From the human T2T-CHM13v2.0 reference genome, Homo sapiens, in assembly GCA_009914755.4 (NCBI GenBank), contig CP086569.2:8032001-8096000 (forward strand): DNA of 64,000 nucleotides, given 5' to 3'. This document shows, in pieces, positions 1 through 28,801 of this stretch (its first letter is position 1; each line of letters opens with the position of its first letter). Position numbers and translations under genes: made by a program. The notes beneath the pieces are model-generated. The model did not search any database. It was given only the letters and a program-made list of their open reading frames with translations, and was not told where the DNA came from.

Positions 1-3000
1 GGTACAAGAGTTGTTATTAGGCCTTTGACCTGGTCTTAGGTGTATGGCATAATATCACCTGTGGTCCAGGAGAAGAAAGGACAGCCGCATCACCTTAGTG
101 GGTGCTGGTCTAGTGAATTATTACAATGTATTTTTGGGGCAGGACTCCGGAAGATGAGTCACATCACCAGGATACTTGTTTCAGTGATATATCTAAATCC
201 CCACTATGGGGAGGGCTGAGGCAGGACAAGAGACAAAGTTCACATACTCAATTGGCCTGGATATATGTCACAATTTCCCCTGTGTGCACAAACATACAGG
301 AGAGTAACCTCACCTTGGTGCTGGGTTCAGCAATGTGTCACAATCTCCCTGGTTGTCAGGGCCCAGGCAAGAGGGAAGAAACATCACCTAGGTTCTGAGA
401 CAAGTGATATGTTACAAATTTTCCAATTGGCAGAGCCCTTGCACAAAAGAGTCACATCACCTGGGTTGAGATACCAGTTATGTGTCACAATGCACCCCAA
501 GTGTCAGGCAAAGGCAATAGAAGGAATTCATGTCACTTACATGATGGACCATGATAAAAGCCACAATGCTCCTTGTAGGCAGGGTTCAGGCCAATATTTC
601 ACATCAGCTGGGTGCTTGTCTCAGTAATACGAAAAAGTGCCCTCTGTCACATTGCCAAACAAGATGTTGTATATTGCATATATGCTTGATGCATATATGT
701 CACAATTTCAACAGCGGTCTGGGCCTACAAAGGAGAGACAAAACACTCAGATGCTGGACAAAGTCATACTTCTCAATTACACAGTCAAAAATGTTCAGAA
801 ATAAGTTTTACAGTCCCACAGAAGTCCTGGCTTCTGGTATGAAAGTCAACAGCTCCTATGATTTGGGTCAAAGTACAGGAGTCACAATCTGAACAATGGG
901 CAATATCCCTGTATAAGAACCCCAGTTCCACTTGAAGACTGTTCCAAGAGATGAGTCAAAGCACTACAGGTATGCTGAATTATGGTTGAAACATCATCAA
1001 ACTACCCATGGATCAAATTCATGTATGAGAATACAACTTTAAGCTTTGACTGCTTATGTGTGTGATATTTAGTATCTCACTCATAGGCTCTGTTTATTTG
1101 TGAGAATGACAACTGTGTCAGCTGGGTGTGGATCCAAGAGTCACAATAGCCACTTGGTTGCTGGTGTCTGTTATGACACTTTTTGTACCACTCAGACCTT
1201 ATATAATATGTCTAAGTAGCATATTTTTCTGTAAATATTTACAGGTGGGAGATCTAGGACTTTACCCATGGTCCTAAGACTAGCTATGATAGTTGAAGTA
1301 TCATTCCTGGCTGGGACTAGGTATGAGAGTTATTATTGTGAATATGAGCTGAAGAAGGGTAGCACAACTTAGGTGTTGTGCCAAGCAATATGTCACAATG
1401 CTCTCTTTAGGCAGGGTCCAGTAATTAGTGTTACATTAACTGGGTGCTGGACCCAGCAATATGACACAATCCCAATGTGGGGGGCGGGGAACAGAAAAGT
1501 AATGAGAGCAAAAGAGCAAAAACACCTACAGAATAGGCCCACAATATGTGAAAATACTTTCTGTCACTCTGGCACAGGGAGGAGAGTTACATCATCAGGG
1601 CGTGGGGCCCAGAAATATGCCCTAATTATCTCCTTAGGCAGGAGTGAGGTAGAAAAGAAATATCATCTGGTTCCTGGCCCCTGCCAATATGTCAAAATTT
1701 CTTTTCATGGGCATGGTTCAGAAGCAAAAGTAGAGTCATATTGCATAAGTATTAGCCTTAGCGATATGCCACAACACCCCATTGTTAAGGCTCAGGGAGA
1801 AGAAAAGAGTCACTTCAATTAAAAAACAATCTTACATATATAGTCCAATGGCCCAAGTAAGCGGGGATCTGGCAGTAGAGAGGAGTCATATCACCTAGGT
1901 GCTTCACTAGGTATATGACATAATCTAACATGTGAGGTGAAAGGAGGTAGAGGAGCCACATCACCTTGATGCTGGGTTCTTAGATGTGTCACCAGGCTCC
2001 CTTAGGACAGGACCCAGGCAAGACTGTTACAACAAATAGATGCAGGTTCCACACTTATGTCACAAGGCTCCATGTGATCAGGGCCCAAGAAGTAAGTCAT
2101 ACCACCTAGATGACAGGCCCAGAATTATGTCACAATGTCCTCTTTGAGGCATAACCCTGTTGAAAGAGTGTGATCACCTGGATGCCTAGCCTAGCAATAG
2201 GACACCATCCAGGGAAAGCAGGACCCAAAAGGAGAGCAACATAACTTAGGTGATAGGCCAAGCGATTTTTCACAATGTCCCTCTTAGGACATGGGCCTAG
2301 CATAGGAGTGCCATACCCTGTGTGCCTGGCCCAGCTGTATGTTACTATTCCCCACTGTGTGAAAGGCCCATTCTAATGAGGAGAGTTATGTCACCCAAGT
2401 GGTTGACATAGTGAAATGTCACAATAATTTCTGTGGGCATGGCTCAGGAAAATGTAATATGACCTGGGTGCTGGATCTGGAGATATGTCATGATTCTTAC
2501 AGACAGCAGGGCCCAGGAAGGAGAGAAATATCACCCAGAGGTGGGTGGATACCACAATAACATATGTGGGCAGAAACCAGTATGGAGTGTCAGATCACAC
2601 AAAAACTCTACAAATACTTATATTACAATCACACTTGCAGAAAATTCCCAAAAGGAGATTTACAATATCACACCTGTCCTGTTTTCATGAGTGAGAGTTG
2701 GCTTCATATATGTGAGATGGTGACAGTTCTTACTGTCAGCAGGGTGTGCATATGCGACTCACAATTTCACCTTTTCTGCTGGGTTCTGTTATGACACTCT
2801 CTGTATAAGCCAAAGAGTTTAAGAAATATCTGAGACTGTTGTAATCTTATTTGAACTTTTTTTTTACCAGAAAGATATTTAATCACTCTTGTTACTAAAG
2901 CAAGTTATGAGAGTCAAAATTACTCCTTTTTGTGGGGTCTACATATAAGAGTCATTATCATGCCTGTGAGCTGTGCCTAGGTATATGCCATAATTTACTC

Positions 3001-6000
3001 TATGGTAATGAAACAGACAACACAGACAAGTCACCTAAATGCTGAGCCAGAAATTTTCATATATTCTCCTTGTAAGCAACTCCCTAGAAGAAAAGTTGCA
3101 TGTCTTGGGTTTACACTGAGATGTATGGCATAATGCCCCTTGTGGGCAATGTCTAGAAGGAAAAAGAGACTCATATCACCTAAACGATAGGCCCAAAGCT
3201 ATGTCAAAACTTCTCCTGTTGAAAGGACCCGGCAAGAAAGTCATATGAATTTGATGCAGTGCTTGGAAATGCTACAATCCCCAGTGGAATCAGGGTCTAG
3301 GAAGGAGAGTCAGGTAACAAGATGATGAGTCCAGCAACATGTAGCAGTCCTCCCTGAGGATATTGTTAACACAACAGAGTCAAATCACCAAGGTGCCCAG
3401 CTGAGGTAAGTGTCCAAATGTGTGGGTTGCACTTAAGCAGAATATTCAATCACTCATGAGCTGGGCAAAGGTATATGTCACAATAACACTGGTGGAAAAT
3501 TCCAGGAATCAGAATCATCATCATGCGTATAACCTGGCTCCAGGTTTAAGAAGAATGATTAGTCCTTTGATCTGCTCTCAGGTATATGGCACAATATCAC
3601 CTGTGGGAAGAGGAAAAGCAGGAAGGTCACGTCACCTGGGTAGGTGCTGGTGCAATGAAATGTCACAATTCTTGTAGGCAGAATCCTGAAAGAAGGGTCA
3701 TATCATATGGATGCTGGTTTAAGTAATATACCAAAATTCCACCTGTGGGTAATGCTTAAAATTAGAGTAGACTCAATTCATCTAGGCGACCGACCTAGAT
3801 ATGTCACAATAGCTTCTATGTCCAGGACCAAGGTATTGAAATGACCTCACCTTGGCACTGGGGTTAGCAATATGTCACAATATCCCCTGTGTTCAGGGTG
3901 AGGCAAGAGAGGAGAAACATAACCTAGCTGCTGAGCCAAGGGATAGGTTACAAAGATTCCTGTTGGCATAATCCAAAACACAGAGTCCAATCACCTGGGT
4001 GCAGTACCTAGTTTTGTGTCACAATGCACCGTAAGTTCAGGGCCAAGAGAGTAGAAAGGAGTCACATCACTTATGTGATGGGCCTAGATATAAGCCCAAA
4101 TACTATTTACAGGCAGGAATCAGGTAAATAATTCACATTACCTGAGTGCTGGTTCTAGTGATATGTAAAAGTGCCTTTTGTAGGCAGGCCCAGGCACCTA
4201 GACTTAGGTGTATACTCCACATATGTCACAATTTTATCTGTGGTCATGGTCTAAAAAGGAGAGTAAAATTATTCAGGAGCTGGGCTAACTTTTATGTCCT
4301 AATCACACACTAAGCAATATTCAGAAATAAGTTACACAGTCCCACACAAGTCCTGACTTTGAGTATGTGAGTTCATATCTCCTATGAGTTGGTCAAAGCT
4401 GAGAAGTCACAATCTCAACAATGGGCAAGATCCATATATTAGATGCCCAATCCCACATGAAGATTGTGCTTCAGTAAGGGAGTCGTGGAACCTCAGTTGC
4501 TGAATTATGCATCACCAAGTGACCTCTGTGTCAGATCTGTGTATGTGATGACCAATTTCAACTTTCAACTGCTCTTTTTTTTGTGAGATTTAGAACCTTA
4601 CTTCTGGGCCCTGTTCTTGTGAGAGAATGACAATCAGGTAAGATGAGTGTGCATCCAAGAGTCACAATCACACCTGGTTTCAGTTCTGTGTTATGATACT
4701 TTTTGTACCACTCAGGTTTAATGTGATATGCCTGAGTGTCATAATCCTCTGTGAACTTTATACAGTTAGGAGACCCATTACTTTACTTATGGTCATAATA
4801 TTAGCTATGAGAGTCAAAATTTCTTTCTCTTCTGGGTCTAGGTATGACAGTTATTTGTGATGTGAGCTGAACAAAGGTATATGTCACAAATTCACCTGTG
4901 TACAGAAACAAGGCAGGAGAGTTTCATCACCTGGATTCTGAAGTCAAGATACCTTACAAACTCCTTTGCAGGCCAGGCCAAGCCAGAAGAGTCACATCGC
5001 CTTGGTACAGCCTCAAATAATATGGCACCATGTCCACTGTAGACAGGTTTGTAGAAAAAGTGGAGAGTTACACCACCTAGGTCCTGGGCTCAGCATTATG
5101 TAATAATCTCCTCTTCTGGCAGACTCCAGAATAAAGAGGAACATTGCATTACCTTGTTTTCCACTCATCAGTATATTATAATTCCTTCAGTGGGCAAAAC
5201 CTAGACAGAAGACAAGAGTCACATTTCTTAGATGCTACATTCAACGATGTCACAAAGTTCCTTGAGGGTAAAGCACATGCAAAATAGACAAATCACCTAG
5301 TTGATAGGGTTGGAGATATGTGATAATATCCCTTTTTGGCAGAACCCAGAGAGAAGAGTCACATTATTATGATACTGACCCAATGATATGTCGCAATGCA
5401 CACATGGGAAACAATTTAAGCAAAATTTTAACATCTAAGTACTAGACCCAGTAATATGATGCAATCTTTTCATCTTTGAGGATGACACCGTTAAGTGCTA
5501 GCTTGGTGTATATATGAGTCACAATGTCACGTGTGTGCTGGGTCATGATATGACACACTCTACAACATCCAAAGGCTTTATATAGCATGCAAGACAGTCA
5601 GAGACTACTCTGACGCCCACTGGCTTATGAGAACTGACAATCTTAAATACTGCCTTAAACCCAGGTATGATAGTCAACATCTACCATTTAGGCTGAGTTC
5701 AGAAATAAGACTCATTTTTATACCTGTGAGCCTTGTCCAAAATGAGTCATGATCACACCTGTGGCCAGATCCACATATGAGAGTCACAATTCCCCCTTGG
5801 TACTGTTTTCCCTTGTCAGACTCAGTAACTCAACAGTGTGCTTTCTAAACGTGGTATGATGACAACTTTTACTTTTACCTGGCTGTGTAATTTAGATTCA
5901 CAATCTTAACTTTTTGCTGGGCCTTGTTATGTAACTCTCTGTACCACCAAAAGGAGTTTATACAATATGAGTCAGTGTTGAAAACTTCTGTGAACTTTGT

Positions 6001-9000
6001 ACAAATTTGAAACCCAGCATTCTACCTGTTACCTTACTCATAGTGATGAGAGATAAAATCTCTCCTATTGACTAGATTCCATTATAAATTTGACCATCAT
6101 GCCTGTGAACTGAAGCAAGGCATATATCATAATCCCATTTGTGGACAAAAGTTAGGAATAGAGTAACATCACTTAACTTAAATGATGTGGCAAGAAATAT
6201 GTCACAATACCGTTTCTAGGAGGATATGTCAAAATACACTCTGTGGTTCTGACACAGGCAGGACACTAGTATCTTCAGGGTGCTAGGCCCACCAGTCTGA
6301 CATAAATCCCTCTTCATTCAGGAATCTGGCAGAAGAGTGACATCATCTGGGGGAATAGGACAAAATTTCCCTTAGTGGGCATAGTTCAGAATAAAGAAGA
6401 GAGTCACATGACCTAAATGCAACGCTTAGCAATATGTCACAATGCCACCATTTTAAAGGCACAGGTAGGGGAAAAGAGTCATATCCCTTAGGTCATGGGC
6501 TTAGTGATATGTCTCAATGTCCTGAGTAGGCAGGGCACAGTAGACAAGAAGAGTCACATCGCCTAGGTGCTTCCCTAGGAATATATCACAATGTAACATG
6601 TGGGCAGAAACCAGGCAAAATAGCCAGATCACTTGGGTGCTGGGTCTTGATATATGTCACTAGGCTCTGTTAGGACAGCACCTGGGCAAGAGAGTTACAT
6701 CACCCTGGTGCAGGTTCTCTGCTCATGCCTACAATATGTGTAGGGCCCAAGGAGGGAGTCATTTCACCTAGGTGATAGGCCCAGAGATCTATCACAATGT
6801 CCACTATGAAGCATAGACCTGGCAAAAGAGTACCATCACCTGTGTCCATGGTATAGAAATATGCCAGTCTCCAGGTTGGCAGGGTAAAAGCAGGAGAGCC
6901 ACATAACCTAGGTGATAGGCCCAGAGATTTGTCACGATGCCCTCCTTCTGTCATAGCTCTGGCAAAAAATATCTTCACCTGTGTGCCTTTCCTTGCATTA
7001 CATAACAATCCTTTCTTTGTGCAGGGTCCATTACAGAGAGGAGAATTACCTCCTATGAGGTAGACACAAAACTATGTCACAATAATCTTGTTGGGGATGG
7101 TGCAGGCAAGAAAGTAACATCACCTGGGTGCTAGATCCAGTGATATATCACAATACATACTGAGGGAAGGGCCCAGGCAGGAGAGTCACATCACCTCTAG
7201 GTTGGCCTCAATAGATATCACAATCCCATATATGCGCCTGAACAACTCTGGATAGCCAAAATACCCAGGTGCTTTGCAAAGATTTATATCACGATCACAG
7301 TCTCAGAAAATTTCACAGATGATATTTACAATATCACACGTTTTGCTTTTATGTGTGACAGTTGGCTTCATCCATGTGAAATGATGACAGTCCTTACTGT
7401 TCAGCTGGGTGTGCATACAAGAAACAGAATTTTGCCTGTGGGCAGAGTCCTACTATGACTCTGTCTGTAGAACTCAAAGACTTTGTAAAATATATGTAAG
7501 TATTGTAATCTTTTGTAACCCTTGTACAATAAGGTGATCTAGGATATCACACATGTCCCTAAACTTGGTTACAAGAGTCAAAATATCCTCTACTGGCTGA
7601 CTCCCCATAGAAGAGTCATTATCAAGCCTGTGAGCCATACCTAGGTATATGTTCCACTTCCCTCTGTGGTTGTGAGGCAGGCAGAACAAATACATCACCT
7701 AAATGCTGGGCCAAAAATATTCCAATATTCCCTTTTTAGATGGGGTCCTGTCCAAAATGTCACAAAATTTGTGTGCTAGGATCAGCTCTATGACACAATG
7801 TCCCTTGTGGGCAGTTTCCAGGCAGAAGATGAGAGTCATATGATCTAAATGATCAGCCCAAAAATATGTTACAATGCCTCCTGTTGGCAGGGCCCAGGCA
7901 AAAATTTCATATCATTTGGATGCAGTTTTTAGAAATGCTGCAATTACCAAAGGAAGCATGGTACAGGCAGGAGAGGAGAGTCATGAAATGCAGATGATGG
8001 GCCCAGAAATATGATACAATCTACCCTAAGGACATTGTTAAGATACCAAGAGTCAAATCACTAAGGTGCTTGTCTCAGGTATTTGTCAAAATCTCATTTG
8101 TGGGCTACACTTGAGCAGAATTATTAAGTCACTCAGGAGCTGGTGAAAGGTATATGTCACAATTACATTTGTGGAAATGTCTAAGAATAAGGGTCACCAT
8201 CATGCACATATCCTGGATCCCGGCATATGAGTTGTTATTAGGCTCTTGTTATGGTCTTTAGTATATGGCACAATATGACCTGTTGCCAGAGAGAAGGCAA
8301 GAAAATCACATCACACACGTGAGTGCAGGTCCATTGAGATGTCACAATCAACCTTATGGGCAGGACCCTGGCAGAAGTGTCACATAATCTGGTTTCTGGT
8401 TTTAATGTCATATCAAAATCTCCTCTGTGGGCAGAAATTTGGCAGAAGAGGAGACACACTTCACCTAGGGAATCAACCTAGATATATGTCACAATGGCCA
8501 ATATGTGCACTACCAAGGCTGGAGAGTGACCTCACTTTGGTGCTGGGCAAGAAATATGTCACAATCTCCTTGTGGACAGGTTCCACTGAAAAGCAAAGAA
8601 ACAACACCTATGTGCTGAGCCAAGTGATATGTTCCAATGCTTCCTGTGGGCACAACCCCAAAAGGAGAATCATGGCACATTTGTGCAGTACTGAATTACG
8701 TGTCACAATGCGCTGTTTGCGCAGGGCCAAGGCAATAGAAGGAAGTCATATCACTTGCATGATGGACGTAGATACAAAACACAATTATTTTTGTAGGTAG
8801 GTTTCAGGCAGACAATTCACATCACCTGGGTGATGGTCCCGGTGATACATAAAATTTATCTTTATGGACAGAACAAAGGAAGATGGTGTTTATTCTATAT
8901 ATGGTACAATTTCATCTGTGTCCTGGGCCTAGAAAAGACAGTCAAATTATTCCTGTGCTGGGCAAAATTAACCTGTGACAATCACACTCTCAGAAAGGTT

Positions 9001-9517
9001 CAGAAAGAATTTTTACATCACACAGAAGTCCTGGCTTTTTTTAGGTGAGTCAAATCTTTCTATGAGTTGGGCCGAAGTAGAAGAGTCACAATCTCAACCT
9101 TGGGCAAAATCCATGTATAAAAGCCCAAATCTCACTTGAAGATTGTGTTCCAGCAGGGGAGTCAGAGCACCACATGGGTGCTGAATAATGGTTCAAATAT
9201 TACCAATCCACCTGTGAATCAGATCCATGTGTGAGAGCTATTATTTCAATCTTCAACTTCTTTTTATGTGTGAGATTAAGGACCTCATGCCTAGGTCCTG
9301 TTGATGTTTGAGAATAACAATCGTGTCAGCTAGGTCTGCATATAAGAGTCACATTCTCACCTGGTTGCTGGTCTCTGTTATGACACTCTTTGCACAATTA
9401 AGGCTTTATATGATATACCTGAGTCTTATAATCCTTTGTGAACTTTATACAAGTGAAAAACCCAGGACTTTACCCCTGGCTATGATATTGGCCATGATAT
9501 TCAAAATATCTCTACTG

Positions 9518-9810
9518 GGCCAGGCGTGGTGGCTCACGTCTGTAATTCCAGCACTTTGGGAGGCCAAGGCGGGTAGATCACAAGGTGAGGAGATTGAGAC
9601 CATCCTGGCTAACATGGTGAAACCCCATCTCTACTAAAAAATACAAAAAATTAGCCAGGCGTGGTAGTGGGCACCCGTAGTCCCAGCTACTCAGGAGGCT
9701 GAGGCAGGAGAATGGCGTGAACCAAGGAGGCAGAGCTTTCAGGGACCAGAGATCGCACCACTGCACTCCAGCCTGGCCTACAGAGCGATACTCTGTCTTA
9801 AAAAAATAAA
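9518..9810 (+). mobile_element. Full-length Alu (AluY/AluS-like) inserted in the array.
   Basis: Starts 'ggccaggcgtggtggctcacgtctgtaattccagcactttgggaggccaaggcggg'. Dimeric structure and terminal A-rich tail 'cttaaaaaaataaa' are present. The flanks 'aaatatctctactgg'/'aaataaatctattgg' form an imperfect TSD. The element is absent from the homologous positions of other repeat units. Confidence 0.9.
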
Positions 9811-11694: not shown

Positions 11695-11995
11695 TTTTTT
11701 TAAATTTTATTATTATTATACTTTAAGTTTTAGGGTACATGTGCACAATGTACAGGTTTTTTACATATGTATACATGTACCATGTTGGTGTGCTGCACCC
11801 ATTAACTCGTCATTTAGCATTAGGTATATCTCCTAATGCTATCCTTCCCCGCTCCCCCACCCCACAACAATCCCCAGAGTGTGATGTTCCCCTTCCTGTG
11901 TCCATGTGTTCTCATTGTTCAATTCCCACCTATGAGTGAGAATATGCGGTGTTTGGTTTTTTTGTCCTTGCGATAGTTCGCTGAGAATGATGGAT
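11695..11995 (-). mobile_element. L1 3'-end fragment (~300 bp, young L1PA-like) in antisense orientation, with a 20-bp TSD.
   Basis: Poly-T then 'attattatactttaagttttagggtacatgtgcacaatgtacaggtt...cccacctatgagtgagaatatgcggtgtttggtttttttgtccttgcgatagttcgctgagaatgatgg' is the reverse complement of the L1 3'UTR/ORF2 end. It is nearly identical to the antisense L1 at 31857–32180. Flanking direct repeats 'actggtatgtcacaatttct' sit at ~11675–11694 and ~11999–12018. Confidence 0.85.
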
Positions 11996-14900
11996 GAAAC
12001 TGGTATGTCACAATTTCTTAAGTGGGAAGGATCCAGACAGGAGAGTAGAGTCATATGTCACAATTTCTTAAATGGGCAGGATCCAGGGAGGAAACTAGAA
12101 TCATATAACCTAGATGCTATGTCTAGTGATTTGTAACAGTGTCAATTGCCAGCACGGAACTGGCAGGAGAGACATCTCACCTAGCCAGTAGACTCAGAGA
12201 TATGGGAAAATATACCCTGTTTGCAGGGCCCTGGCAGAAAGTTATCATCATTATCACATTATCGTGTGATAATGATATACCATCATTATACACCATCACA
12301 TTATGATGATTCTGACCCATAATGCCCTTAGGAAAAGGAATTCACTCCAAAAATTCTGAACACCAGGGTACTAGGCCAAGGGACATAACACAATCTCCTG
12401 ATCTTTAATGGTGATATCATTAGTGATCAGGTAGTTGTGTATAGGAGAGTCATAATCTCACATGTGTGCTGGCCATTATGTGACACTCTTTACAACACCT
12501 GAGAACTTTATAAAATATGGATAAGAGCTGCAAACCTCTCTGAGGCCTACATGCTTATATGGACTCATGATCTTGCATATTGCCCTAAACACAGAAATGA
12601 CAGTCAAAATTTCTCCCATAGGCTGGCCTCAGTGATGAGACAATTATCATGTCTGTGAGCTGGATCCAGAAATGAATCACCATGCCACATGTTGACAGAT
12701 TCACTTATGAAAGTCATAATTTCAACTTTGGGCTGTATTCATTTATCAGGACCTCAGCATTGGGCTTTGTAAATGTAGGATGGTAACAAATTTTACACTC
12801 ACCTGAGTGTGTAGTTGAGAGTCACAATCTTCACTTTTTGCTGGGCCCTGTTAAGAAACTCTCTGTACAGCCCAAGAGTTCTTGTGATATCAGTTAGTGT
12901 AGTAAAACTCTGTTAGATTTGTATGAATATGCAATGAAGGACCATCCATATTGACCTAAGCCTGGTGGTTAGAGTCAAAATATCTCCTACTGGCTGAATC
13001 CAAATATAAGCTTAAACATCATCACTTTGAACTGAAGCAATTTGTGGGCAAAAAACTAGGCAGAAGGTTAACATCACTTAGGGGCTAGGCCAAGCAATAT
13101 GTCACAATGCCTTTTCTAGGCAGGGCCTGGGAAAGAGGTGAAATTAACTGGGGGCTGGAGCCAGCAATGTGATACAACCACACAGGGAAGAAACACAATA
13201 AAGTGATGACAGCCAAAACACTTCTAGTATGGAAAAAAGATATGTCAAAGTAACATATGTGGTCCTGCAAAAGAGTCACATCATTAGCGTGCTGGGCCAA
13301 TCAATATGTTCCAATTCCCTCTTTATTCGTGACCTAGGGAGAAAAGTAACATCATCCAGGTACTGGGCCCCAAAATTCAGCAAAAATCCTGTTCATAGGC
13401 ATTGTTCAGCAAGAAGGCGGGAGTCACTTTACGTAAGTCCTGGGCTCATCAATATGTCACACTCTTCCCATTGTAAAGGCCCAGACAGAATAAGAGAGTC
13501 ACATCATGTTAGCCGTGGGCTCAGAGATATGGTTCAATGTCACCAGTCAGAAGGGCTCAGGCAGAAAAAGAGTCTTATCACCAATATGCTCTTTACATAT
13601 ATGTCACAATTTAATATGTGGGCAGAAACCAGGCTGAGGGGCCGCATCACCTGATCCTCAGTCCTGAGATATTCACAAGTCCCCTTAGAAAAAACCCCAG
13701 ACAAGAGACTTACATAACCTAGGTGCAGGTTCCACTCTTTTTGTCACAAAAATCCATGTGAGAAGGGCCAATCAGGAAGTCACCTCACCTAGGTAATAGG
13801 TTCAGAGATATGTCACAAAGCTTTCCTTAAAATATAGCCCTGGCAAAAAGAAGTTGCATCACCACTGTGCCTAGCCTGGCAATATGTCACAACTCAAGCG
13901 GGCAAGTCTCAAGAAGAACAAAATTATCTATATGATACACCCTGTGATGTGCCAAAATGCCCTCTTTTGGGTGTGACCCTGGCAAAAGAGTATCAACAAC
14001 TGTGTGTCTGGCCTTGGTATATGTCACTATTCTGCCCTGTGTGCAGGGCCCATTCTAGAGAGGAGAGTTTCTAAGTAATGGACACAGTGAAATGTCACTA
14101 TGATATCTGTGGATATGGCCCAGGCAAGAATGTAACATCACCTGTGTGCTGGATCCATTGATGTCACCATTATTACCGAGAGGAGGGCCCAGGTAGAAGA
14201 GTCACATCACTTCAAGGTTGGCCCATGTACTTATCAAAATCCCATAAGTAGGATCAAACCAATCTGAAGAGTGAAATCACACAGGTGCTTGACAAAGATT
14301 TATATCACAGTCAAAATGGAAGAAAATTATTGGGACTAGATCTACAATACAACACATATCGTGGTTTCATGTAGAACAGTTACCTTCATCCATGTGATAG
14401 TGAAACTCCTTACTGTCAGGTGGGTGTGCATGTCAGACTCACAATTTCCTCTGTGTGCTAGGCCCTACTATGACACTCTCTATACAACACAAGTTTGTTA
14501 TAAAATATATGTGAGCATTGTAATCTTCTGTGACCTTTTTATCAGAAGGAGATCCTGGATGGCACTCATGTTTCTAAACACAGCTATGAGTCAAAATTTC
14601 TCCTATTAGCTGGGTCCTCATATGAGAGTCATTTTCATGCCTGTTAGCTGTGCCTAGGTATATGTCATTATGTCACCATCCCCTCTGAAGTTATTAAACA
14701 GGTAGGATAGCCACATCACCTTAATATTTTCTTTGTAGGCAGGGACCTAACACAAAATCAGAACACTTGGGTGCTAGGCCCAACTGTATGGCATAATGCC
14801 TCTTATGGAGAGTGTCCATGCAGGAGAGAAGAATCATATTACCTCAATGATGGGCCCAGAAATATGTCACATGACTCATGTTGAAAGGGCCCAGGCAAGA

Positions 14901-16780
14901 GATTCATGTCTTTTGGATACAGTGCTTAAAATGCTACACTTCTCATTGGAAGTAGGGTTCAGGCAGTAGAGGAGACACATAACCTAGACAGTGCGTCTAG
15001 AGATATGTTATAATATTTTCTGCAAAAACTGTTAACACAGGAGAGTCAAATTAACGAGGTTCTTGGCACAGGTCTATGTCAAAATGTCATCTGTGGGCTA
15101 TAACTAGGCAGGATTATTAAATCACGCAGGAGCTGGGCAAAGGTACATGTTACAATAACACCTGTGGAAAGGTTCAGTGATGAGAGTCACCATCCTGCAC
15201 ATGTCCTGGATCCAGGTACAAGAGTCATTATTAGGCCTTTGTTGTGGTCTCAGGTATATGGCTCAATATCACCTGTGGGCAGGGAGAAGAAAGGAAAGTC
15301 ACATCGCTTGAATGGGTGTTGGTCTAGTGAAATGTCACCAGCCTCCTTGTGGGCAGGACCCTGGAAGAAGAGTCACATCATGTGGATTCTGGTAGCAGTG
15401 ATATATCTGAATCCACACTGTGGGTAGTGCTTAGGAAGGAGAGGAGACGAACTTCACATAGACTATTAGTCTTCATATGTGTAAAATGGCACCTATGTGC
15501 AGGACAAAGGCAGGAGAGTGACCTCATCTTGGTGCTGAGTTCAGCAATATGTCACAATGTCTCTGGTGGTCAGAGCCCAGACAAGAGAAAAGAAACATCA
15601 CCTAGGTGCTGAGCCAAGTGATATGTTACAATGCTTTCTATTGGCAGAACACTCCTCCCCCCAAAAAAAGAGTCACATCATCTGGGTACAGGACGCTGTA
15701 TTGTCACAATGCGCTATAAGGGCAGAAGCAAGGCAGTAGAAGAAAGTCACATCATTTTACACGATGGACCTAGATAAAAGCCACGATGCTCTTTTTAGGC
15801 AGGGTTCAGGCCAAGATTTTACATTAGCTGGTTGTTGGTACCAGTGATATGTAGAAGTGCCCTTTGTTGCATTGACAAAGAAGGTGCTATATAATGCTTA
15901 GGTGCTTGGTGCATGTATGTCACAGTTTGAACTGTGCTATGGGCCTAGAAAACAGGGTGAAAACCTTCAGAGGCAGGTCAAAGTCATACTTCTCAATCAT
16001 ACACTTGAAAATGTTCAGAAATAAGTTTGACAGTCCCACAAAAGTCCTGGCTTCAGGCATGTGAATGAACACCTCCTATAAGTTGGGTTCAAGTACTACA
16101 GGAGTCACTATCTCAACAATGGGTAAGATCCATATATAAGAGCCCCAATCCCACTTAAAGATTGTGGTCCAGTAGGAGAGTCAAAACACTGCAAGTCTGC
16201 TGAATCATAATTCAAAAGCCACCAAGCCACCTGTGGGTCATATTCATGTATGAATGTAACAATTTCAAGCTTCTACTGTGTACGTGTGTGAGATTTAGTA
16301 CCCTATTCCTAGGCTTTGCTCATGTATGAGAGTGACAATCGTGTCAGCTGTGTGTGGATCCAAGAGCCACAATAGCACCTAGGTGTCGGTGCCTGTTATG
16401 ACACTATTTGTGTCACTCAGGTTTTATATGATATGCCTGAGTAAGTAGCATACTTCCCTCTGAATTCTTACAGGTAGAACATCTAGAACTTTACCCATGG
16501 CCATAAGACTGGCTATGAGAGTTGATATATTTCCCCTGGTGGGGTCTAGGTATGAGACATATTATTGTGCATATGAGCTAAATCCAGGTTTATGTCACAA
16601 TCTCACTTTTGGATAGAAATATGACAGAAGAGTCACATCATCTGGGTAATGAGCCAGGGAAACATTTTAACCTCCTTTGTAGGCAGGAGCCATGCAGAAG
16701 AGTCATAGAGCATGGATAAAGTCTCCAACAATATGTCATCATGCCCACTGTATACAGGGCTGAGAAAAAAGCGGATACTC

Positions 16781-17080
16781 GGCTGGGCATGTGGCTCATG
16801 CCTGTAATCTCAGCACTTTGGGAGGCTAAGTTGATTTGATCACCTGAGTTCAGGAGTTCAAGACCAACCTGACCAAGATGGTGAAACACCGTCTGTACTA
16901 AAAATATATAAAAAAATAGCTGGGTGAGGTGGCAAGTGCCTGTAATCCTACCTACTTGGGAGGCAGAGGCAGGAGAATCGCTTGAAACTAGAAGGCGAGG
17001 TTGCAAAGAGCTGAGATTGTGCCCTTGCACTGCAGTGTGGGTGATAACAGCAAAACTCCATTTCAAGGGAAAAAAAAATA
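16781..17080 (+). mobile_element. Full-length Alu (AluS-like) inserted in the array, followed by a short (TA)n/'gtggatatatata' microsatellite.
   Basis: 'ggctgggcatgtggctcatgcctgtaatctcagcactttgggaggctaag...gagattgtgcccttgcactgcagtgtgggtgataacagcaaaactccatttcaagggaaaaaaaaa'. Left and right monomers and a poly-A are present. Confidence 0.85.
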
Positions 17081-20000
17081 TATATATATAGTGGATATAT
17101 ATATCGTGGATAGTCACACGCTCTGGGTGCTGGGCTCAGCAATATGTTATAATTACCTCTTCCGGCAGAGTGCAGGACAAAAGAGAGTCACATCACCTAG
17201 GTTTTCCACTCAGTGGTATGTCACAATTTCATCACTGGACAGGATTCAGGCAGGAGAGGAGAGTCATATTACTTAGATGCTAGATCTAGCGATATGTCAC
17301 AGTGTCCCCTGTGGGTAGGGCACTGGCAGGAAAGACACATCATCTAGTTAATAGTCCAGAGATATGTGATAATATTCCCTGTTCCCTGAGTTCAAGTAGA
17401 AGAGTCACATTGTTATCATTCTGACTCAGTGATATTTCTCAATGCACCCATGGGAAAGAACTGAAATAACATAGTCTCAACACCGGGTTACTAGTTCTAG
17501 TGACGTGACACAATCACCTTATCTTTTAGGGTAGCACCTTTAATTGTTAGCTTGGTGTGTATATGTAAGAGTCACAATCTCACATGTGTTCTTCTTCAGC
17601 TTATAACACAGTCTAAAACATCTGAAGGCTTTATGCAACATGAATGTGAATTGCAAACCATTCTAAGGCCTATGTGCTCATATTGACCCAAAATCTTACA
17701 TATTGCCCTAAATTCAGTTATGATAGTTAACATCTCTCTTATAGGCTGGGTTCAGACAGGACACATCTTGTTATGTCTGTGACCTGGTTTCAGAAAATAA
17801 TCACTATGTGACATGTACCAAGATCCACAGATGAAAGTCACAATTCCATCTTTCTAATTTATTTATTTGCTAGACTAAGACCTTCAACAGTGGGCTTGTT
17901 AATGTGAGATAGTGACAACTTTTGCTCCCACCTGCATGTGTAATCAAGAGTCACAACCTTAACCTTGTGCTGGGCCCTGTTATGAAGGTCTGTGTACCAG
18001 CAAAGGAGTTTACAGTGTATGAGTTATTATTGTAAACATCTGTGAGCTTTGAACACTATGCAACTCATAACCTTATATATTGCATTAAGCTTACTGATGA
18101 GAGACAAAATACCTATGACAGGTGGAATCCCAATTTAAGTTTGATTATCATGCCTGTGAAATGAAGCAACATAAAATTTATAATCCCATTCACAGAAAAA
18201 TAAACTTGGCAGGAGTGTAGCATAATTTAGCTGCTGTGAATATGTCACAATGCTTTCTCTAGGCAGGGTCTAGTAATGAGGGTTACATTAACTGTGTGCT
18301 GGAACCAACAATATGACACAATGCTATATACATATATAAAACAACCCAGACAAATGTTGAGAGCAAAACCCCTAGAGATTTGCCGAAGGTATGTAAAAAT
18401 ACTTTCTGTTGCACTGGCACAGGCAGGAGAGTTATATCATCAGGGTGGGGGGCCCAGCAATATGCCATAATTCTCTCTTTATGCAGGACACAGGTAGAAG
18501 AGAAATGTCATCTGTGTACTGGGTCCTGCAATACATCCAACATCCTTTTCATGAGCATGGTTTGGGAAAAAAAAAGAAGAGTCACATTACCCAAGGATTG
18601 GGCTTAGCAATATGTCACATCATCCCATTGTAAAGACTCAGGCAGAAGAAAAGAGTCACATCACATAGGACACGGGCCCAGATATATGGCCCAGTGTCCC
18701 AAGAAGGCATTGGTCAGGCAGAATAGAAGAGTCATATCATGTAGGTGCTTCCCTAGGTATATGACACAATCTAATATGTGAGTTGAAGCCAGGCAGATGA
18801 GTCAAATCAGCTTGATGGTAGGTCTATAGATATGCTGCATGTCTCCTTAAGAAAAGACCCAGGTCAGAGAGCTACAACAAATACTTGCAGGTTCTGACCT
18901 TATGTCACAATGCTCCTTGTGGATAGGGCTCCAGCAGGGAGTCACATCACCTAGGTGATAGACCTAGAGACATATCACAGTGTCATCCTTGTGGCATGGT
19001 CCTTGTGAAAGAGCTCCATCTCCTGTTTGCCCGGCCTAGCAATATGTCACTATCAAGGTAAGCAGGATCCAAGGTGGACAGCAACATCACCTATGTGATA
19101 GGCCCAGAGATTTTTCACAGTGCCCTCTTCAGGACACAGCATTAGCAAAAGAGTACCATCACCTGTGTGTCTGGCCCAGCCATATGTCACTATCTTCCAC
19201 TGTGTACAAGGCTCATTCTAATGAACAGAGTTATATCACCTAAGTGGTTGAAACAGTGATATGTCACAATTATTCATTTGCATGTTGCTCAGTCAAAAAT
19301 GTAACATAATCTGGGTGCTGGATCTAGTGATATGTCACGATTCTTACGGAGAGAAAGGCCCAGGCAGGAGAGTCACATCACCTAGAGGCTGGCCCAGGTA
19401 GATATCATAATGATATATGTGGGCTGGAACCAGTCTGGGGAGTCAAATCACACAGGTGCTGGGCAAAGATTTATACCACAATCACACTGGCAGAAAATTC
19501 CTGAGTTGAGATTTACAATACTACACATGTTCTGTTTTCATGGGTGACAGTTGGCTTTATATATGTGAGAGGGTGACAGTCCTTACTTTCAGCTGGGTGT
19601 GCATATGAAACTCATAATTTCACCTTTCTGCTTGGTTCCATTATTACACTCTCTGTACAAACCAAGGGCTTTATAAAATATCTGAGGCTATAATAATCTT
19701 CTGTAGCCTCCTTTTCTATCAGAAAGAGATTTAATCACTGATGTTTCTAAAGCAAGTTAGGAAACTCAAAATTACTCCTATTTGTGGGATCTATATATGA
19801 TGGTCATTATTATTCCTGTGAGCTGTAACTAGTAAATTGTGTGTATCACAATTTACTCTGTGATAACGAAAGAGTTACAACAGCCAAGCCACTTAAATGC
19901 TGAGCCAGAAATGCCTATTGTTGTCAGTGTCCAGGCAGAAGAGGAGAGAATATTACCTCAATGATAGGACCAGATATGTTTCAAAATGTCTCCTGTTGAA

Positions 20001-21800
20001 AGGACTAGGCAAGAGAGTCATATGATTTGAATGGAGTGCTTATAAATGCTACAATCCCCAGTAGTACCAGAGTTCAGGCAGGAGAGGAAAGTCTGGGTAA
20101 CCTAGATAATGGATGCAGAGACATGTTACATCCTTCCTGAAGGTATTGTTAAGACATGAGAATCTAATCAGCAAGGTGCTCAGCATAGGTGAATGTCTAA
20201 ATATTATGTGTGGGCTACACCTCAAAAATTGATTAAATCACTGAGAAAGTTGGGTAAAGGTATATGTCACAAAAACACAGGTGGAAAGTTCCAGGAATGG
20301 GAATCACCATCATGCATATATCTTGACTCCAGGTTTAAGAGACATGATTAGTCCTCTTATCTTGTCTCAGGCATATGGCACAATATGACCTGTGGGCATA
20401 CAGAAAGCAGGAACGTCACATCCCCTGGGTGAGTGCTGGTCCAGTGAGATGTCACAATTCTTCTTGTGGGCAAGACCCTGAAAGAAGAGTCACATCACCT
20501 GGATGCTGGTTTTAGTGATACATCAAAACTCCCCCTGTGGGCAGGGCATAGGAAGGTGAGGAGACTCACTTCACCTAAGCAATGGGCCTAGATATATATC
20601 ACAATGGCCGTTATGTGCAGGAGCAAGGTATGAAAGTGACTTCCTCTTGCTTTATTTAGCAATATATCACAATCTCTCCTGTGTTCAGTGTGAGGCAAAA
20701 GAGGAGCAACATCACCTAGGTGCTGAGCCAAGTGACATGCTATAAAGCTTCCTATTGTCAGAACCACAAACTCAGAGTAGCATCACCTGGGTGCAGTACT
20801 GAGTTATGTGTCACAATGCACCATAAGTGGAGGGCCAAGGCAGAAGAAGGGAGTCACATCACTTACATGATGAACCTAGATACAATCCACAATGCTTTTT
20901 ATAGACAGGGATTAGGCAAAATTTCACATCACCTAGGTGCTGGTCCAAATGATATATAAAAGTGCTCTTTGTAGGCAGGTCCAGGCAAATTTTCTTAGGT
21001 GTATGGTCCACATATCTCACAATTTTATCTGTGGTCATTGCCTAAAAAGGAGAGTAAAGTTATTCAGGAGCTGGGTTAACTTTTATGTCCTAATCACACA
21101 CTAAGAAATATTCAGAAATACGTTTCAAAGTCCCAAACATGTCCTGGCTTCGTGTATTTCAGTCAACATATCTTGTGAGTTGGGTCAAATCAGAGGAGTC
21201 ACAATTACAGCAATGGGCAAGATCCACTTATAAGATGTCCAATCACACATGAAGATTGTGTTGCAGTAGGGGAGTCATAGCCTCATAGGTGAAAGTCCTT
21301 ACTGTCAGCTGAGTGTGATATGAGACTCACAATTTTACCTTTCCTCTAGGTTCTGTTATGCCACTCCATACAAGGCAAGGGCTTTGTAAAGTATCTGAGG
21401 CTATTATAATCTTACGAGACCTTTTTACCAGAAAGAGATCAAAGACATTACTCTTGTTTCTAAAGCAAGTTACAAGAATCAAAATTACTCCTATTTGTGG
21501 GGTCCACATATGATACTCATTATCAGGTCTGTGAGTTGTGCCTAGGTATATGTCAAAATTTACTCTGTGGTAATGAAAAAGGCCCGACAGCTACATAACC
21601 TAAATGCAGAGGCAGGAATTGTTCCAATAGTTTCCTCATAGGCAAGCTCCTGACAGAAAAGCCCTATAACTTTGGAGCTATGCCCAACTGTATGGCACAA
21701 TGTCCTTTGTGGGCAGTGTCCAGGCTGAAGAGGAGAATCATATAATGTAAATGACAGGCCCCAAGTACGTCACAATGCCTCCTGTTGAAAGGGCGAGGCA

Positions 21801-22870
21801 TGTATGTTTTCTAATTATAGTCATTTTAACTGGAGTGGCTTGGTATCTTATTGTGGCTTTGATTTGCAGTTTTCTATGAATAAATAATGATGAGCATCTT
21901 TGCATGAACTTGGTCACTTTTGTCTTCTTTGGAGAAATGTCATTTAAGCTCTCTTGCCTATTATTAAATTTTGTGTTATTTTTGCTGTTAAGTTTGTTGT
22001 ATATTCTGTATCTTTTCCCTGTGTCATATGTATATTTTGCAAATTATTATTCTATGCTGAAAATTGTCCCTTTACTCTGCTATTTTTGCTATGTAAATAT
22101 TGTTTAGATTCTGGTGATTTCACTTGTCTGCTTTTGCTTTTGTTGCCTGTGCTTTTGAGGTCCGATTTAAAATATTTTTCCCTCTCCTATTTGGTAAATA
22201 ATTTCTCCATGTTTTATTCAAATACTTTTATAGGTGTCAGTTTTATATTTAAATCTTTTTTATTTTTATGTAAGTTCTTTTATGGTAACAGGTAGGCACC
22301 TAGTTGTTTTCATTTAATCAATTTTCCTTGACACTGTTCATTGAAACTACTGTCTTGCCTTAAATGCATACACTAAACAACTTAAAAATTACTTGGCAAT
22401 AGGTTTATTAACTGATTATTGTGATCACTGCATACTTTGGTCTATATGTCTGTTTTCCATGCCAATATCATTCTTTCTTGTTATTAGTTTTGTCATATAT
22501 TTTGAAGTCAGTTAGTCTGATGCTTTCAGCTTTATTTTTTTCACAAAATTTCTTTGGCTATTTGGGAAGTTATTTTGTTCCTTATAAATTTTAGGCCTGC
22601 TTTTTCCATTTCTGTGAAAAAAAAAAAGTCATTGGTGTTTTTGTAGGCTTTGCACTGCATCTGTAGATTGCTTTGAGTAGCATAGCCACTTTAATAATAT
22701 TTTTTATAACTCATGAGCAAAAAAATTGCTAAAATTTTTCATTTTTTTAGTTTCTTCATCAGTGTTGTATAATTTATAGTGTAGAGGGCGGTTTATCTTT
22801 TTAATTAAGTTTATGGCTAGCCACCTTTATCTTTTATTTTAGGTGCACTAAAATATTTGGAAAATTTTAA
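21801..22870 (-). mobile_element. Old L1 (L1M/L1PB-like) ORF2 fragment in antisense orientation, abutting the array boundary.
   Basis: 'cttggtatcttattgtggctttgatttgcagttttctatgaataaataatgatgagcatctttgcatg' and 'ccatttctgtgaaaaaaaaaaagtcattggtgtttttgtaggctttgcactgcatctgtagattgctttgagtagcatagccactttaataat' match the reverse complement of the L1 ORF2 region downstream of the RT domain. The sequence is highly diverged. Confidence 0.6.
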
Positions 22871-22889
22871 CATGCCTTTGTGATTAAAA

Positions 22890-23330: not shown

Positions 23331-23464
23331 AAAAGTCTTACTTCATTTTATGTTCATTGTTGTAATGAACCTTACCCCAACATTTTTTATCATTTAGATG
23401 TTCAGTGTTCTTCAAGCCATTTGTTAGTCAGACTGTGCCTTTCTCATTCTGAGTGACATAGACA

Positions 23465-28564: not shown

Positions 28565-28801
28565 ATTTGGAACCCCCGTTTAAGATAAGTTGACTGTATC
28601 TGGCTTCCCTTACTGTTTCAGAATTTATTTTTCTATCTATGCCAGCATCACTCTTTTGATTATTATAACTTTGCAAAATGTTTTGAAATAAAAAGGAATT
28701 ATGCCTCTGAGTTTATTCTTATTTCCAGGCTGTTTGACTACTTGTGGTTTTCTGAGTGTTTATAGAAACTACAGGGCAATATTTATTGTCTCACTATGTG
28801 A

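What the first reader, a model, noticed from the sequence alone, without database searches (positions are those of the whole stretch)
1..21800. Nested periodicity in the satellite: ~68-bp monomers, three homologous ~1.55-kb sub-blocks (X, Y, Z), and a ~4.7-kb higher-order repeat
The array is more structured than a simple satellite. Each sub-block holds roughly 14 clean ~68–72-bp monomers and a ~600-bp anchor segment that is no longer obviously monomeric. The three anchors are diverged copies of one ancestral segment:

- X: '...gtgacagttcttactgtcagcagggtgtgcatatgcgactcacaatttcacc...ctgttatgacactctctgtat'
- Y: '...atgacaactgtgtcagctgggtgtggatccaagagtcacaatagccac...ctgttatgacactttttgtac'
- Z: '...gtgacaacttttacttttacctggctgtgtaatttagattcacaatcttaac...ttgttatgtaactctctgtac'

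So the 4.7-kb unit arose by triplication of a 1.55-kb unit, which itself was built from 68-bp monomers. Landmark spacings are Y->Z ~1.54–1.6 kb, Z->X ~1.5–1.64 kb and X->Y ~1.54–1.63 kb. The full Y->Y period is 4.68 kb (4310->8990). This hierarchy, with a degenerate anchor inside each sub-block, is worth comparing with annotated beta-satellite arrays in KZNF clusters.
Basis: seen in the sequence. Interest (0 to 1): 0.6.

Follow-up and report, generated by a model that had tools for sequence, protein, structure and literature searches.

The report
Old beta-satellite array with nested repeats
This is a very old, decayed human satellite DNA array next to a dead zinc-finger gene, and its repeats-within-repeats pattern is real but less regular than first described and is a kind already reported for this type of gene cluster.

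Summary
The nested periodicity is real, but the "three equal 1.55-kb sub-blocks" description is only partly right.

**What holds**
- The DNA is human. Positions 1-21834 and 47417-64000 are head-to-tail arrays of about 71-bp monomers, all on the + strand. Monomers are about 67% alike, GC is 42% and CpG o/e is 0.11.
- The "anchors" are true paralogues. They share a 280-bp core that is itself four degenerate monomers.
- A higher-order unit of about 4.7-4.8 kb exists once two Alu insertions are removed. Copies are only about 70% alike.

**What does not hold**
- There are four core types per unit (W, Z, X, Y) plus a vestigial fifth (V), not three.
- In-register spacings are unequal: W-Z 0.37 kb, Z-X 1.5-1.7 kb, X-Y 1.9 kb, Y-W 0.85 kb.
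- No positional homology is detectable in the monomer tracts between anchors, so a clean triplication cannot be shown.

- A further level: four unit variants (A, D, B, C) recur with a 15-17-kb period at 75-81% identity, across both arrays.
- Later Alu and L1 insertions, and deletions, at least one joining two anchor cores in register.

This matches what I recall of the complex beta-satellite blocks of the 19p12 KRAB zinc-finger cluster (Eichler 1998, which I could not read here). It is a fossil satellite, of low novelty.

The parts
1..21834 (+). Satellite array 1: head-to-tail ~71-bp monomers plus anchors. Unit variants run B (1-1352), C (1353-5461), A (5462-10455), D (10456-12390), B (12391-17510), C (17511-21834).
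   Evidence: Monomer profile hits on the + strand only. Unit alignment and identities. Best-paralogue map.
47417..64000 (+). Satellite array 2, same orientation. Unit variants run D (47417-51082, interrupted by L1), B partial (52827-55449), C (55450-60228), A (60229-63330), D (63331-64000, cut by the window end).
5462..10455 (+). One complete higher-order unit (variant A): W core, Z core, 17-18 monomers, X core, 8 monomers, vestigial V, 9 monomers, Y extension plus Y core, 8 monomers. It is 4994 bp including a 289-bp Alu, or about 4.7 kb without it.
12391..17510 (+). Complete higher-order unit (variant B). It is 5120 bp including an old Alu at 16791-17066.
55450..60228 (+). Complete higher-order unit (variant C), 4779 bp with no transposon insert.
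5464..5741 (+). W-type anchor core. Other W cores: 10458-10726, 12395-12672, 17519-17789, 47753-48029, 55455-55732, 60233-60506.
   Evidence: Core profile hits. Cluster 1, within-type identity 71%.
5841..6124 (+). Other Z cores: 10834-11115, 12764-13040, 17897-18169, 48132-48408, 55831-56111, 60608-60892, 63364-63641.
   Evidence: cluster 3, within-type identity 73%.
2701..2985 (+). Other X cores: 7365-7649, 14388-14662, 19554-19832, 21288-21550 (joined to a Y 5' extension fragment at 21071-21285), 50879-51081 (cut by L1), 54145-54423, 57479-57748, 62305-62586.
   Evidence: cluster 4, within-type identity 68%.
4611..4881 (+). Other Y cores: 1087-1358, 9299-9522, 16314-16592, 59400-59662.
   Evidence: cluster 2, within-type identity 72%.
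15174..15257 (+). Vestigial partial core V, matching core positions ~200-285. Copies at the paralogous position: 3501-3581 and 54949-55030. In the unit consensus it is 2849-2934.
1353..1353 (+). Rearrangement junction. The end of a B-type Y core abuts C-type post-Z monomers. Relative to the second super-repeat copy, 16582->18211 is missing, which is a deletion between the ends of two paralogous cores.
   Evidence: 1-1353 matches 15215-16582 at 78%, and 1353-3054 matches 18211-19912 at 77%.
9518..9806 (+). Alu inserted in the Y block of unit A (88% to an AluY consensus recalled from memory).
16791..17066 (+). Older Alu inserted in the Y block of unit B (77% to the same consensus).
11667..12004 (-). 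L1 3'-end fragment inserted in unit D.
   Evidence: Gap in monomer hits. 88-89% matches to L1 pieces at 31885-32182 and 49454-49753.
48768..49886 (.). L1 insertion in array 2, made of pieces in both orientations. It includes an ORF2 C-terminal reading frame at 49155-49526 (+).
51082..52826 (+). L1 ORF2-derived insertion that truncates an X core. It is followed directly by post-Z monomers of unit B, so about 1.5 units are missing here.
21835..47416 (.). 25.6-kb non-satellite block between the arrays. It holds L1 pieces, several Alus and a decayed KRAB-type zinc-finger exon. Both junctions with the satellite cut through unrelated old L1 ORF2 fragments.
42700..43650 (-). Decayed C2H2 zinc-finger array (pseudogene) with frameshifts and stop codons. 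It produces the 84-bp period found by TRF.
   Evidence: zf-H2C2_2, E=2.7e-6.

Best explanation
This is a relic beta-satellite-type array of the human KRAB zinc-finger cluster. It is no longer being homogenised. Its nested periodicity records successive rounds of tandem duplication by unequal exchange, followed by long neutral decay.

**Levels shown**
1. A ~71-bp monomer, itself two related ~36-bp halves.
2. A 280-bp run of four monomers that diverged into a distinctive "anchor core". It was then copied with variable lengths of ordinary monomers to give cores W, Z, X, (V) and Y at intervals of 0.37, 1.5-1.7, 0.6, 1.3 and 0.85 kb.
3. That whole 4.7-4.8-kb W-Z-X-V-Y unit was amplified, and its copies are now about 70% alike.
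4. A set of four such unit variants (A, D, B, C, together about 15-17 kb) was amplified again, and those copies are now 75-81% alike. This last level spans both arrays of the window.

**Later events shown**
- Alu and L1 elements inserted.
- Segments were lost. At least one deletion (junction at 1353) joins two paralogous anchor cores in register.

**Inferred, not shown**
- The array has no sequence-specific function.
- It acts, if at all, as a heterochromatic spacer and as a substrate for non-allelic recombination in the gene cluster. This is the model of Eichler et al. 1998, as I recall it.
- The 25.6-kb gene-remnant block interrupts what was one array.
For: **Monomers and orientation**
- Period 71, + strand only.
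- Random monomer pairs are 67% identical and monomers are 72% identical to the consensus.

**Anchors**
- 29 cores fall into four clean clusters. Identity is 68-73% within a type and 53-57% between types.
- Cross-type scores are 33-120 bits, against no more than 17 bits elsewhere in the arrays.
- The core is collinear with about 3.3 tandem monomers, z=16.

**Higher-order unit**
- Three full units and ten fragments align over a 4834-bp consensus.
- Unit lengths of 4994 and 5120 bp fall to about 4.7-4.8 kb once the Alus at 9518-9806 and 16791-17066 are removed.

**Super-repeat**
- Same-variant copies have K2P 0.27 and different variants 0.38.
- Same-variant partners are collinear at offsets of 15.2-16.9 kb within array 1, and at 37-55 kb between arrays.

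**Decay**
- GC is 42% in the arrays against 60% in the monomer consensus.
- CpG o/e is 0.11.
- GATC density is at background level.

**Junctions and context**
- Junction at 1353 between the ends of two cores.
- Human origin: 99.6-100% identical contigs in human-associated samples.
- Zinc-finger pseudogene.
- Reviews state that beta satellite has a 68-bp monomer organised in HORs and occurs on chromosome 19 (PMC8125562). The 19p12 zinc-finger cluster is described as interspersed with beta-satellite blocks (PMC3018141, citing Eichler 1998).
Against: - No reference satellite library could be searched. The name "beta satellite" rests on the ~70-bp period, the context, and 56/68 matches to a consensus that I recalled from memory.
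- The modal period is 71 bp, not 68, and the diagnostic Sau3A site per monomer is absent.
- The order of duplication events is inferred from identity tiers only. Gene conversion or rate differences could blur those tiers.
- The step from anchor to sub-block is not directly demonstrable, because monomer tracts show no register signal.
- The arrays here are in direct orientation. As I recall the 1998 paper, it describes inverted, symmetrical blocks.
- Any function is untested.
Confidence: 0.85

Rival explanations
1. One reading: an ancestral 1.55-kb block (about 14 monomers plus one ~600-bp anchor) was triplicated into X, Y and Z, giving a regular 3 x 1.55 = 4.7-kb unit.
For: - The anchors are homologous.
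- The mean spacing of the X, Y and Z cores is about 1.57 kb, because three of them share a 4.7-kb unit.
- Z->X is 1.53-1.70 kb.
- The first monomer after the X, V and Y cores is alike, at 0.77-0.80 identity.
Against: - There is a fourth full core W only 0.37 kb from Z, and a vestigial fifth V.
- In-register spacings are 1.22, 1.6 and 1.92 kb.
- The non-monomeric stretch is about 300 bp for X but about 600 bp for Y.
- No register signal exists along the monomer tracts.
Confidence: 0.15
2. The anchors are foreign DNA (fragments of a transposon or of unique sequence) captured in the array, as LSau elements are in beta-composite arrays. They are not derived from monomers.
For: The monomer profile does not cover them at E<=1 (gaps). 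They are AT-richer and look non-monomeric by eye.
Against: - The core consensus aligns collinearly with tandem monomers over about 237 bp, z=16.
- Weak monomer-profile hits recur inside every core type at about +57, +212 and +283, with a fourth at about +130 resolved only in Y.
- Core length is 280 bp, which is 4 x 70.
- They have the same strand and phase as the flanking monomers.
Confidence: 0.03
3. The ~70-bp repeat belongs to a satellite family other than beta satellite, or to an undescribed one.
For: The period is 71 rather than 68, GC is 42% rather than about 52%, and there is no periodic GATC. No library comparison was possible.
Against: - The consensus has 60% GC and shares ATGTCACAATGCC...CTGT.GGCAG.GCC...AGAG..ACATCACCT.GGTG with the recalled beta consensus (56/68).
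- Genotyping primers published for rs8105767 at 19p12/ZNF208 carry the same motifs: GTAGGCAGGGCCAGGCCA and AGTTACATCACCTGGGT (PMC5762523). Their nearest matches in the window have 3 mismatches.
- A zinc-finger pseudogene lies next to the arrays.
Confidence: 0.07
4. The two arrays are independent satellite blocks that flank a gene cassette, rather than one array interrupted by the 25.6-kb block.
For: - As I recall Eichler 1998, it describes satellite blocks lying between zinc-finger gene cassettes.
- Both junctions lie inside old L1 fragments, not at clean insertion ends.
- About 7 kb of the expected super-repeat is missing at the gap.
Against: - The arrays have the same orientation and the same four unit variants.
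- Identity between arrays (75-81%) equals identity between super-repeat copies within array 1.
- The variant order across the gap (…B C | D … B C A D) is compatible with the A-D-B-C cycle if one A unit was lost.
Confidence: 0.35

Closest known systems
Beta-satellite blocks of the human 19p12 KRAB zinc-finger (ZNF91-family) cluster (Eichler et al. 1998, Genome Res 8:791; cited in PMC3018141, PMC8125562, PMC2671837)
   Same: Human DNA with diverged ~70-bp monomers in blocks of tens of kb, a complex higher-order structure, and an adjacent zinc-finger gene remnant with ZNF91-family-type linkers. The array is old and studded with retroposons.
   Different: I could not read that paper here, so I cannot say whether the W-Z-X-V-Y unit or the A-D-B-C super-repeat was described. 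From memory, it reports inverted, symmetrical blocks, whereas both arrays in this window are in direct orientation. The chromosomal location of the window was not testable.
Canonical beta satellite HOR arrays (pB3 on chromosome 9, pB4 on acrocentrics; 68-bp Sau3A family)
   Same: Monomer length class, shared consensus motifs (from memory), head-to-tail arrays, and multimeric higher-order units (PMC8125562; bioRxiv 10.1101/2021.07.12.452052).
   Different: Canonical arrays have about 52% GC, are densely CpG-methylated, carry a Sau3A site per monomer and are homogenised. Here GC is 42%, CpG o/e is 0.11, GATC is at background level, and unit copies are only 70-81% alike.
Beta-composite arrays (beta satellite interspersed with LSau, e.g. 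D4Z4/DUX4-type and DUXY loci; PMC2671837)
   Same: Stretches of beta monomers alternate with a recurrent non-monomeric segment, giving a kb-scale unit.
   Different: Here the recurrent segment is itself four degenerate monomers. It is not an LSau or DUX-bearing element, and no GC-rich LSau-like sequence is present in the arrays.
Diverged or monomeric alpha-satellite layers and alpha-satellite super-HORs
   Same: Hierarchical amplification (monomer, HOR, larger repeat) followed by loss of homogenisation, transposon insertion and decay at the edge of active satellite domains.
   Different: It is an unrelated sequence family with a different monomer length and no centromere function. It is embedded in a gene cluster.

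Membership tests
Beta satellite (BSR / Sau3A family) | Tandem head-to-tail monomers of about 68 bp | tested here: inconclusive
   The arrays are tandem and on the + strand only. The modal period is 71 bp with a range of 67-77. This is close to 68 but not equal to it.
Beta satellite (BSR / Sau3A family) | Sequence similarity to the family consensus | not testable with these tools
   No satellite reference library was available. The de novo consensus matches a consensus recalled from memory at 56 of 68 positions. Primers published for a 19p12/ZNF208 SNP carry the same motifs.
Beta satellite (BSR / Sau3A family) | GC-rich (~52%) with one Sau3A (GATC) site per monomer | tested here: not met
   GC is 42%, CpG o/e is 0.11, and GATC occurs 1.6-2.3 times per kb, the same as the non-satellite region. 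The monomer consensus is 60% GC, which is consistent with decay from a GC-rich ancestor.
Beta satellite (BSR / Sau3A family) | Organisation into multimeric higher-order repeats | tested here: met
   A 4.7-4.8-kb unit is aligned across 13 segments, with a 15-17-kb super-repeat above it.
19p12 zinc-finger-cluster beta-satellite blocks | Human, adjacent to KRAB zinc-finger genes or pseudogenes on chromosome 19p12 | tested here: inconclusive
   Human origin is shown. A decayed C2H2 finger array lies at 42700-43650. The chromosome and band could not be determined with these tools.
Homogenised (active) higher-order repeat array | Unit copies far more alike (typically >95%) than monomers within a unit | tested here: not met
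   Units are 70% alike (different variant) or 75-81% alike (same variant), against 67% between monomers.
Beta-composite (LSau-containing) array | Interspersed LSau or other non-beta element | tested here: not met
   The anchor cores are collinear with tandem monomers, z=16. They are degenerate beta-type monomers, not a foreign element.

The most novel reading that the evidence does not exclude
The 280-bp anchor cores, kept in the same order in every unit for tens of millions of years and marking at least one in-register deletion junction, might be preferred recombination or protein-binding sites. On this reading they organise unequal exchange in the zinc-finger cluster, rather than being passive variant monomers. 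Separately, the gene-remnant block may have been transposed into a pre-existing array, reversing the usual picture of satellite spreading between genes.
Probability: 0.05. Interest if true: 0.45.

Novelty: already known. Interest (0 to 1): 0.15.

Why it matters
Little rides on it. It is a worked example of how a dead satellite preserves its amplification history in identity tiers: 53-57%, about 70%, and 75-81%. It also shows how transposon insertions distort apparent periods. Standard tools can miss such arrays entirely, since TRF found nothing at 70 bp.

The map of unit variants and junctions could help anyone aligning or assembling the 19p12 zinc-finger cluster, or dating its duplications. 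It does not open a new question.

Tried and rejected
- **TRF** at score thresholds 200 and 30 found no ~70-bp or kb-scale array because the copies are too diverged. I replaced it with motif spacing, autocorrelation, blastn and profile searches.
- **Exact k-mer distance histograms** gave a confusing set of peaks: 4679, 4993, 5114, 7018 and 11672. These were explained only after Alu and L1 inserts and unit variants were mapped.
- **Monomer-register test** between sub-blocks showed no signal beyond the first monomer. It has low power.
- **Literature.** Eichler 1998 and Waye & Willard 1989 are not held. Text searches for beta-satellite sequence strings returned nothing useful.
- **A single L1 split by the satellite.** I rejected this idea. 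The left L1 piece is on the - strand and ends near ORF2 '...VKMTIIRK'. The right piece is on the + strand and ends near 'WYQYKGR'. They overlap in ORF2 coordinates and share no DNA similarity.
- **PDB sequence search** with the two boundary translations gave no L1 ORF2p hit because they are too decayed.
- **Shared L1 insertion in the two D units.** I rejected this. The pieces have opposite relative orientation, lie at different sites, and are 89% alike while the flanks are about 75% alike.
- **Degenerate anchor patterns** catch only 1-3 of 29 cores. I therefore did not spend a metagenome-wide scan on them.


Full report
**What the window is**

The sequence is mammalian in character. It has Alus and L1 ORF2 reading frames at 31-36 kb on the minus strand and at 49155-49526. 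A decayed array of C2H2 zinc fingers lies at about 42700-43650 on the minus strand, with linkers of the [17 protein letters not shown] type, frameshifts and stop codons. Pfam reports zf-H2C2_2 there at E=2.7e-6.

Spurious 149- and 153-residue reading frames from the satellite are found, residue for residue, on contigs from human gut metagenomes and other sequencing runs. Those contigs are 99.6-100% identical to 157-9276. The window is therefore human genomic DNA.

**The monomer level**

- An ATGTCACAAT-like motif recurs 290 times on the + strand, almost only in 1-22000 and 47000-64000, with a modal spacing of 71 bp.
- A de novo profile gives the consensus ATGTCACAATGCCTCCTGTGGGCAGGGCCCAGGCAGGAGAGTCACATCACCTAGGTGCTGGGCCCAGAAA.
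- The profile finds 348 hits on the + strand, 4 weak hits on the - strand, and none between 21834 and 47417.
- Base autocorrelation peaks at lag 71 (z=5.6 and 5.1 in the two arrays). Secondary peaks at 36/38 bp point to two related half-monomers, and at 76 and 140-149 bp. The central region has no such peaks.
- Monomers are on average 67% identical to each other and 72% identical to the consensus. This is why TRF reports nothing at this period.
- The arrays have 42% GC and a CpG o/e of 0.11, while the consensus has 60% GC. GATC is no more frequent than in the non-satellite DNA.
- All of this fits a GC-rich satellite that has decayed for a long time without homogenisation.

**The anchors**

The monomer profile leaves gaps of 300-600 bp every 1.2-1.9 kb.

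- Single-sequence searches showed that these segments match each other much better than they match monomer tracts. They also revealed a fourth copy (W) directly upstream of Z.
- A 285-position core profile finds 29 copies with E from 7e-32 to 2e-77.
- These fall into four clean clusters: W (7 copies), Y (5), Z (8) and X (9). Identity is 68-73% within a type and 53-57% between types.
- Profiles built from one type alone score 33-120 bits on every core of the other three types, and no more than 17 bits anywhere else in the arrays. The homology of the anchors is therefore not a by-product of general monomer similarity.
- A vestigial fifth copy (V) matches only core positions ~200-285. It sits at 3501-3581, 15174-15257 and 54949-55030.
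- The core consensus aligns collinearly with about 3.3 tandem monomer consensuses, scoring 79 against 19 +/- 3.7 for shuffles (z=16).
- Weak monomer-profile hits recur inside every core type at about +57, +212 and +283, and a fourth at about +130 is resolved only in Y.
- The core is therefore four degenerate monomers. Y has an additional, Y-specific degenerate extension of about 320 bp on its 5' side.

**Spacing and the 4.7-kb unit**

Core starts run as follows:

| Array | Order of cores |
|---|---|
| 1 | Y1086, X2700, Y4607, W5462, Z5839, X7364, Y9294, W10456, Z10832, W12391, Z12763, X14382, Y16312, W17511, Z17892, X19553, X21269 |
| 2 | W47749, Z48127, X50876, X54142, W55450, Z55830, X57477, Y59388, W60229, Z60607, X62303, Z63361 |

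The canonical unit is W-Z-X-(V)-Y.

- W->W distances are 4994, 5120 and 4779 bp.
- The first two contain Alus, at 9518-9806 and 16791-17066. Without them the unit is about 4.7-4.8 kb.

Measured at homologous core positions, the spacings are:

| Interval | Spacing |
|---|---|
| W->Z | 0.37 kb |
| Z->X | 1.53-1.70 kb |
| X->Y | 1.91-1.93 kb |
| Y->W | 0.84-0.86 kb (Alus removed) |

Three full units and ten fragments align into a 4834-bp consensus. blastn shows the corresponding long diagonals at offsets 4680, 4779, 4987 and 5115-5163, with 67-72% identity.

**Was a 1.55-kb block triplicated?**

I cut the unit consensus into monomers and compared monomers at equal and at shifted distances from the Z, X, V and Y cores.

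- Register-0 means are 0.67-0.685, against block means of 0.655-0.674. Register 0 is not the best shift for the Z-X, Z-V or Z-Y comparisons.
- Only the first monomer after the X, V and Y cores is clearly alike, at 0.77-0.80.
- Cores of different type are only 53-57% identical, which is below the 64-67% background among monomers. The test therefore cannot detect a duplication of that age.
- The conclusion is limited. The anchors were copied together with some monomers, but equal 1.55-kb blocks and a threefold event are not supported by what is measurable.
- A local two-monomer duplication inside the Z block explains the 140-141-bp k-mer peak. In the consensus, monomers 9/10 match monomers 11/12 at 87-90%.

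Unit copies fall into four variants.

- Same-variant pairs are 75-81% identical (K2P 0.27). Different variants are about 70% identical (K2P 0.38). The anchor cores independently give the same grouping.
- A best-paralogue map of 1-kb chunks shows collinear same-variant matches:
  - 1-1353 with 15215-16582
  - 1353-4484 with 18211-21276
  - 4001-6227 with 58784-60989
  - 6217-8424 with 61093-63326
  - 13051-15648 with 52825-55425
  - 17489-21290 with 55428-59277
- Array 1 reads B C A D B C. Array 2 reads D [L1] B C A D.
- The super-period within array 1 is 15.2-16.9 kb.
- Identity between the two arrays equals identity between super-repeat copies within array 1. Both arrays have the same orientation, and the variant order is compatible across the 25.6-kb gap if about one unit was lost.
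- I therefore favour one array interrupted by the non-satellite block. A larger duplicon containing both is not excluded. Both junctions (about 21800 and about 47417) cut through unrelated, oppositely oriented old L1 ORF2 fragments. The block did not arrive by simple retrotransposition.

**Later events**

- Alus inserted at 9518 and 16791.
- L1 pieces inserted at 11667-12004, 48768-49886 and 51082-52826.
- At 1353 the end of a Y core is joined to the sequence that normally follows the end of a Z core. Relative to the second super-repeat copy, 16582->18211 is missing. This is what unequal exchange between paralogous cores would produce.
- At 21288 a Y extension fragment is joined to an X core.
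- In array 2, unit B lacks the stretch that corresponds to 15648-17489.
- Unit A runs from its X block straight into a D-type Z core at 63361.

**Mechanism and function**

- *Shown:* the tiers of identity, the collinearity and the junctions.
- *Inferred:* successive unequal-exchange amplifications, in the order monomer, then anchor-bearing blocks, then the 4.7-kb unit, then the 15-17-kb set. After these came cessation of homogenisation, CpG decay and retroposon insertion.
- Anchors are no better conserved than the monomer tracts at either tier: 68-73% against about 70%, and 76-82% against 75-81%. Nothing suggests selective constraint.
- A role as heterochromatic spacer and recombination substrate in the cluster is the published model as I recall it. 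It was not tested here.

**Comparison with what is known**

- Reviews describe beta satellite as a 68-bp monomer organised in multimeric HORs and present on chromosome 19 among others (PMC8125562). Its GC content is about 52% (bioRxiv 10.1101/2021.07.12.452052).
- The 19p12 zinc-finger cluster is described as interspersed with beta-satellite blocks, citing Eichler et al. 1998 (PMC3018141). That paper's title itself speaks of complex beta-satellite repeat structures. I could not read it.
- Primers published for rs8105767 at 19p12/ZNF208 carry the same monomer motifs (PMC5762523). Their closest matches in this window have 3 mismatches.
- My de novo consensus matches the beta consensus as I remember it at 56 of 68 positions. 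This is a lead from memory, not a library test.

**Verdict**

The feature is a decayed member of a known satellite class in a known setting. Interest is low.

Noticed in passing
window 42700-43650 (-): A decayed KRAB-type C2H2 zinc-finger exon with ZNF91-family-like [17 protein letters not shown] linkers, several frameshifts and stop codons. It produces the only strong TRF hit in the window (84-bp period, 43034-43248).
   Followed up: partly
window 21807-22701 (-) and 22884-23125 (+); 47119-47417 (+): Both satellite/non-satellite junctions cut through old L1 ORF2 fragments. The left one has an inverted 5' piece (twin-priming-like). The two boundary fragments are unrelated at the DNA level and point their 3' ends toward the arrays.
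   Followed up: partly
window 265-627, 1373-1822, 8339-8800, 13229-13654 (+): Chance reading frames of 113-153 residues on the + strand of the satellite have been called as genes in human gut metagenome assemblies (ENA and Logan contigs, 100% identical). This is host contamination entering protein databases.
   Followed up: partly
unit consensus 1319-1600; e.g. window ~6500-6800: A local two-monomer (about 141 bp) duplication inside the Z block. In the consensus, monomers 9/10 match monomers 11/12 at 87-90% identity. It is younger than the unit's other internal structure.
   Followed up: partly
window 12004-12106: A 50-bp tandem duplication (2.1 copies, 86% match) of a truncated monomer, immediately 3' of the L1 fragment at 11667-12004.
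   Followed up: no
window 40000-42000: A GC-rich stretch (47% against about 34% around it) in the non-satellite block. It was not identified and could be an LTR or a decayed CpG island.
   Followed up: no
window 30500-36500 (-): A long L1 on the minus strand with several intact ORF2 reading-frame pieces of 103-164 residues. It explains the strong negative AT skew at 32-36 kb.
   Followed up: partly
arrays 1 and 2: A half-monomer periodicity (lags 36 and 38). ATGTCACAATGCC and GAGTCACATCACC begin the two halves, so the ~71-bp monomer may itself be an old dimer.
   Followed up: no
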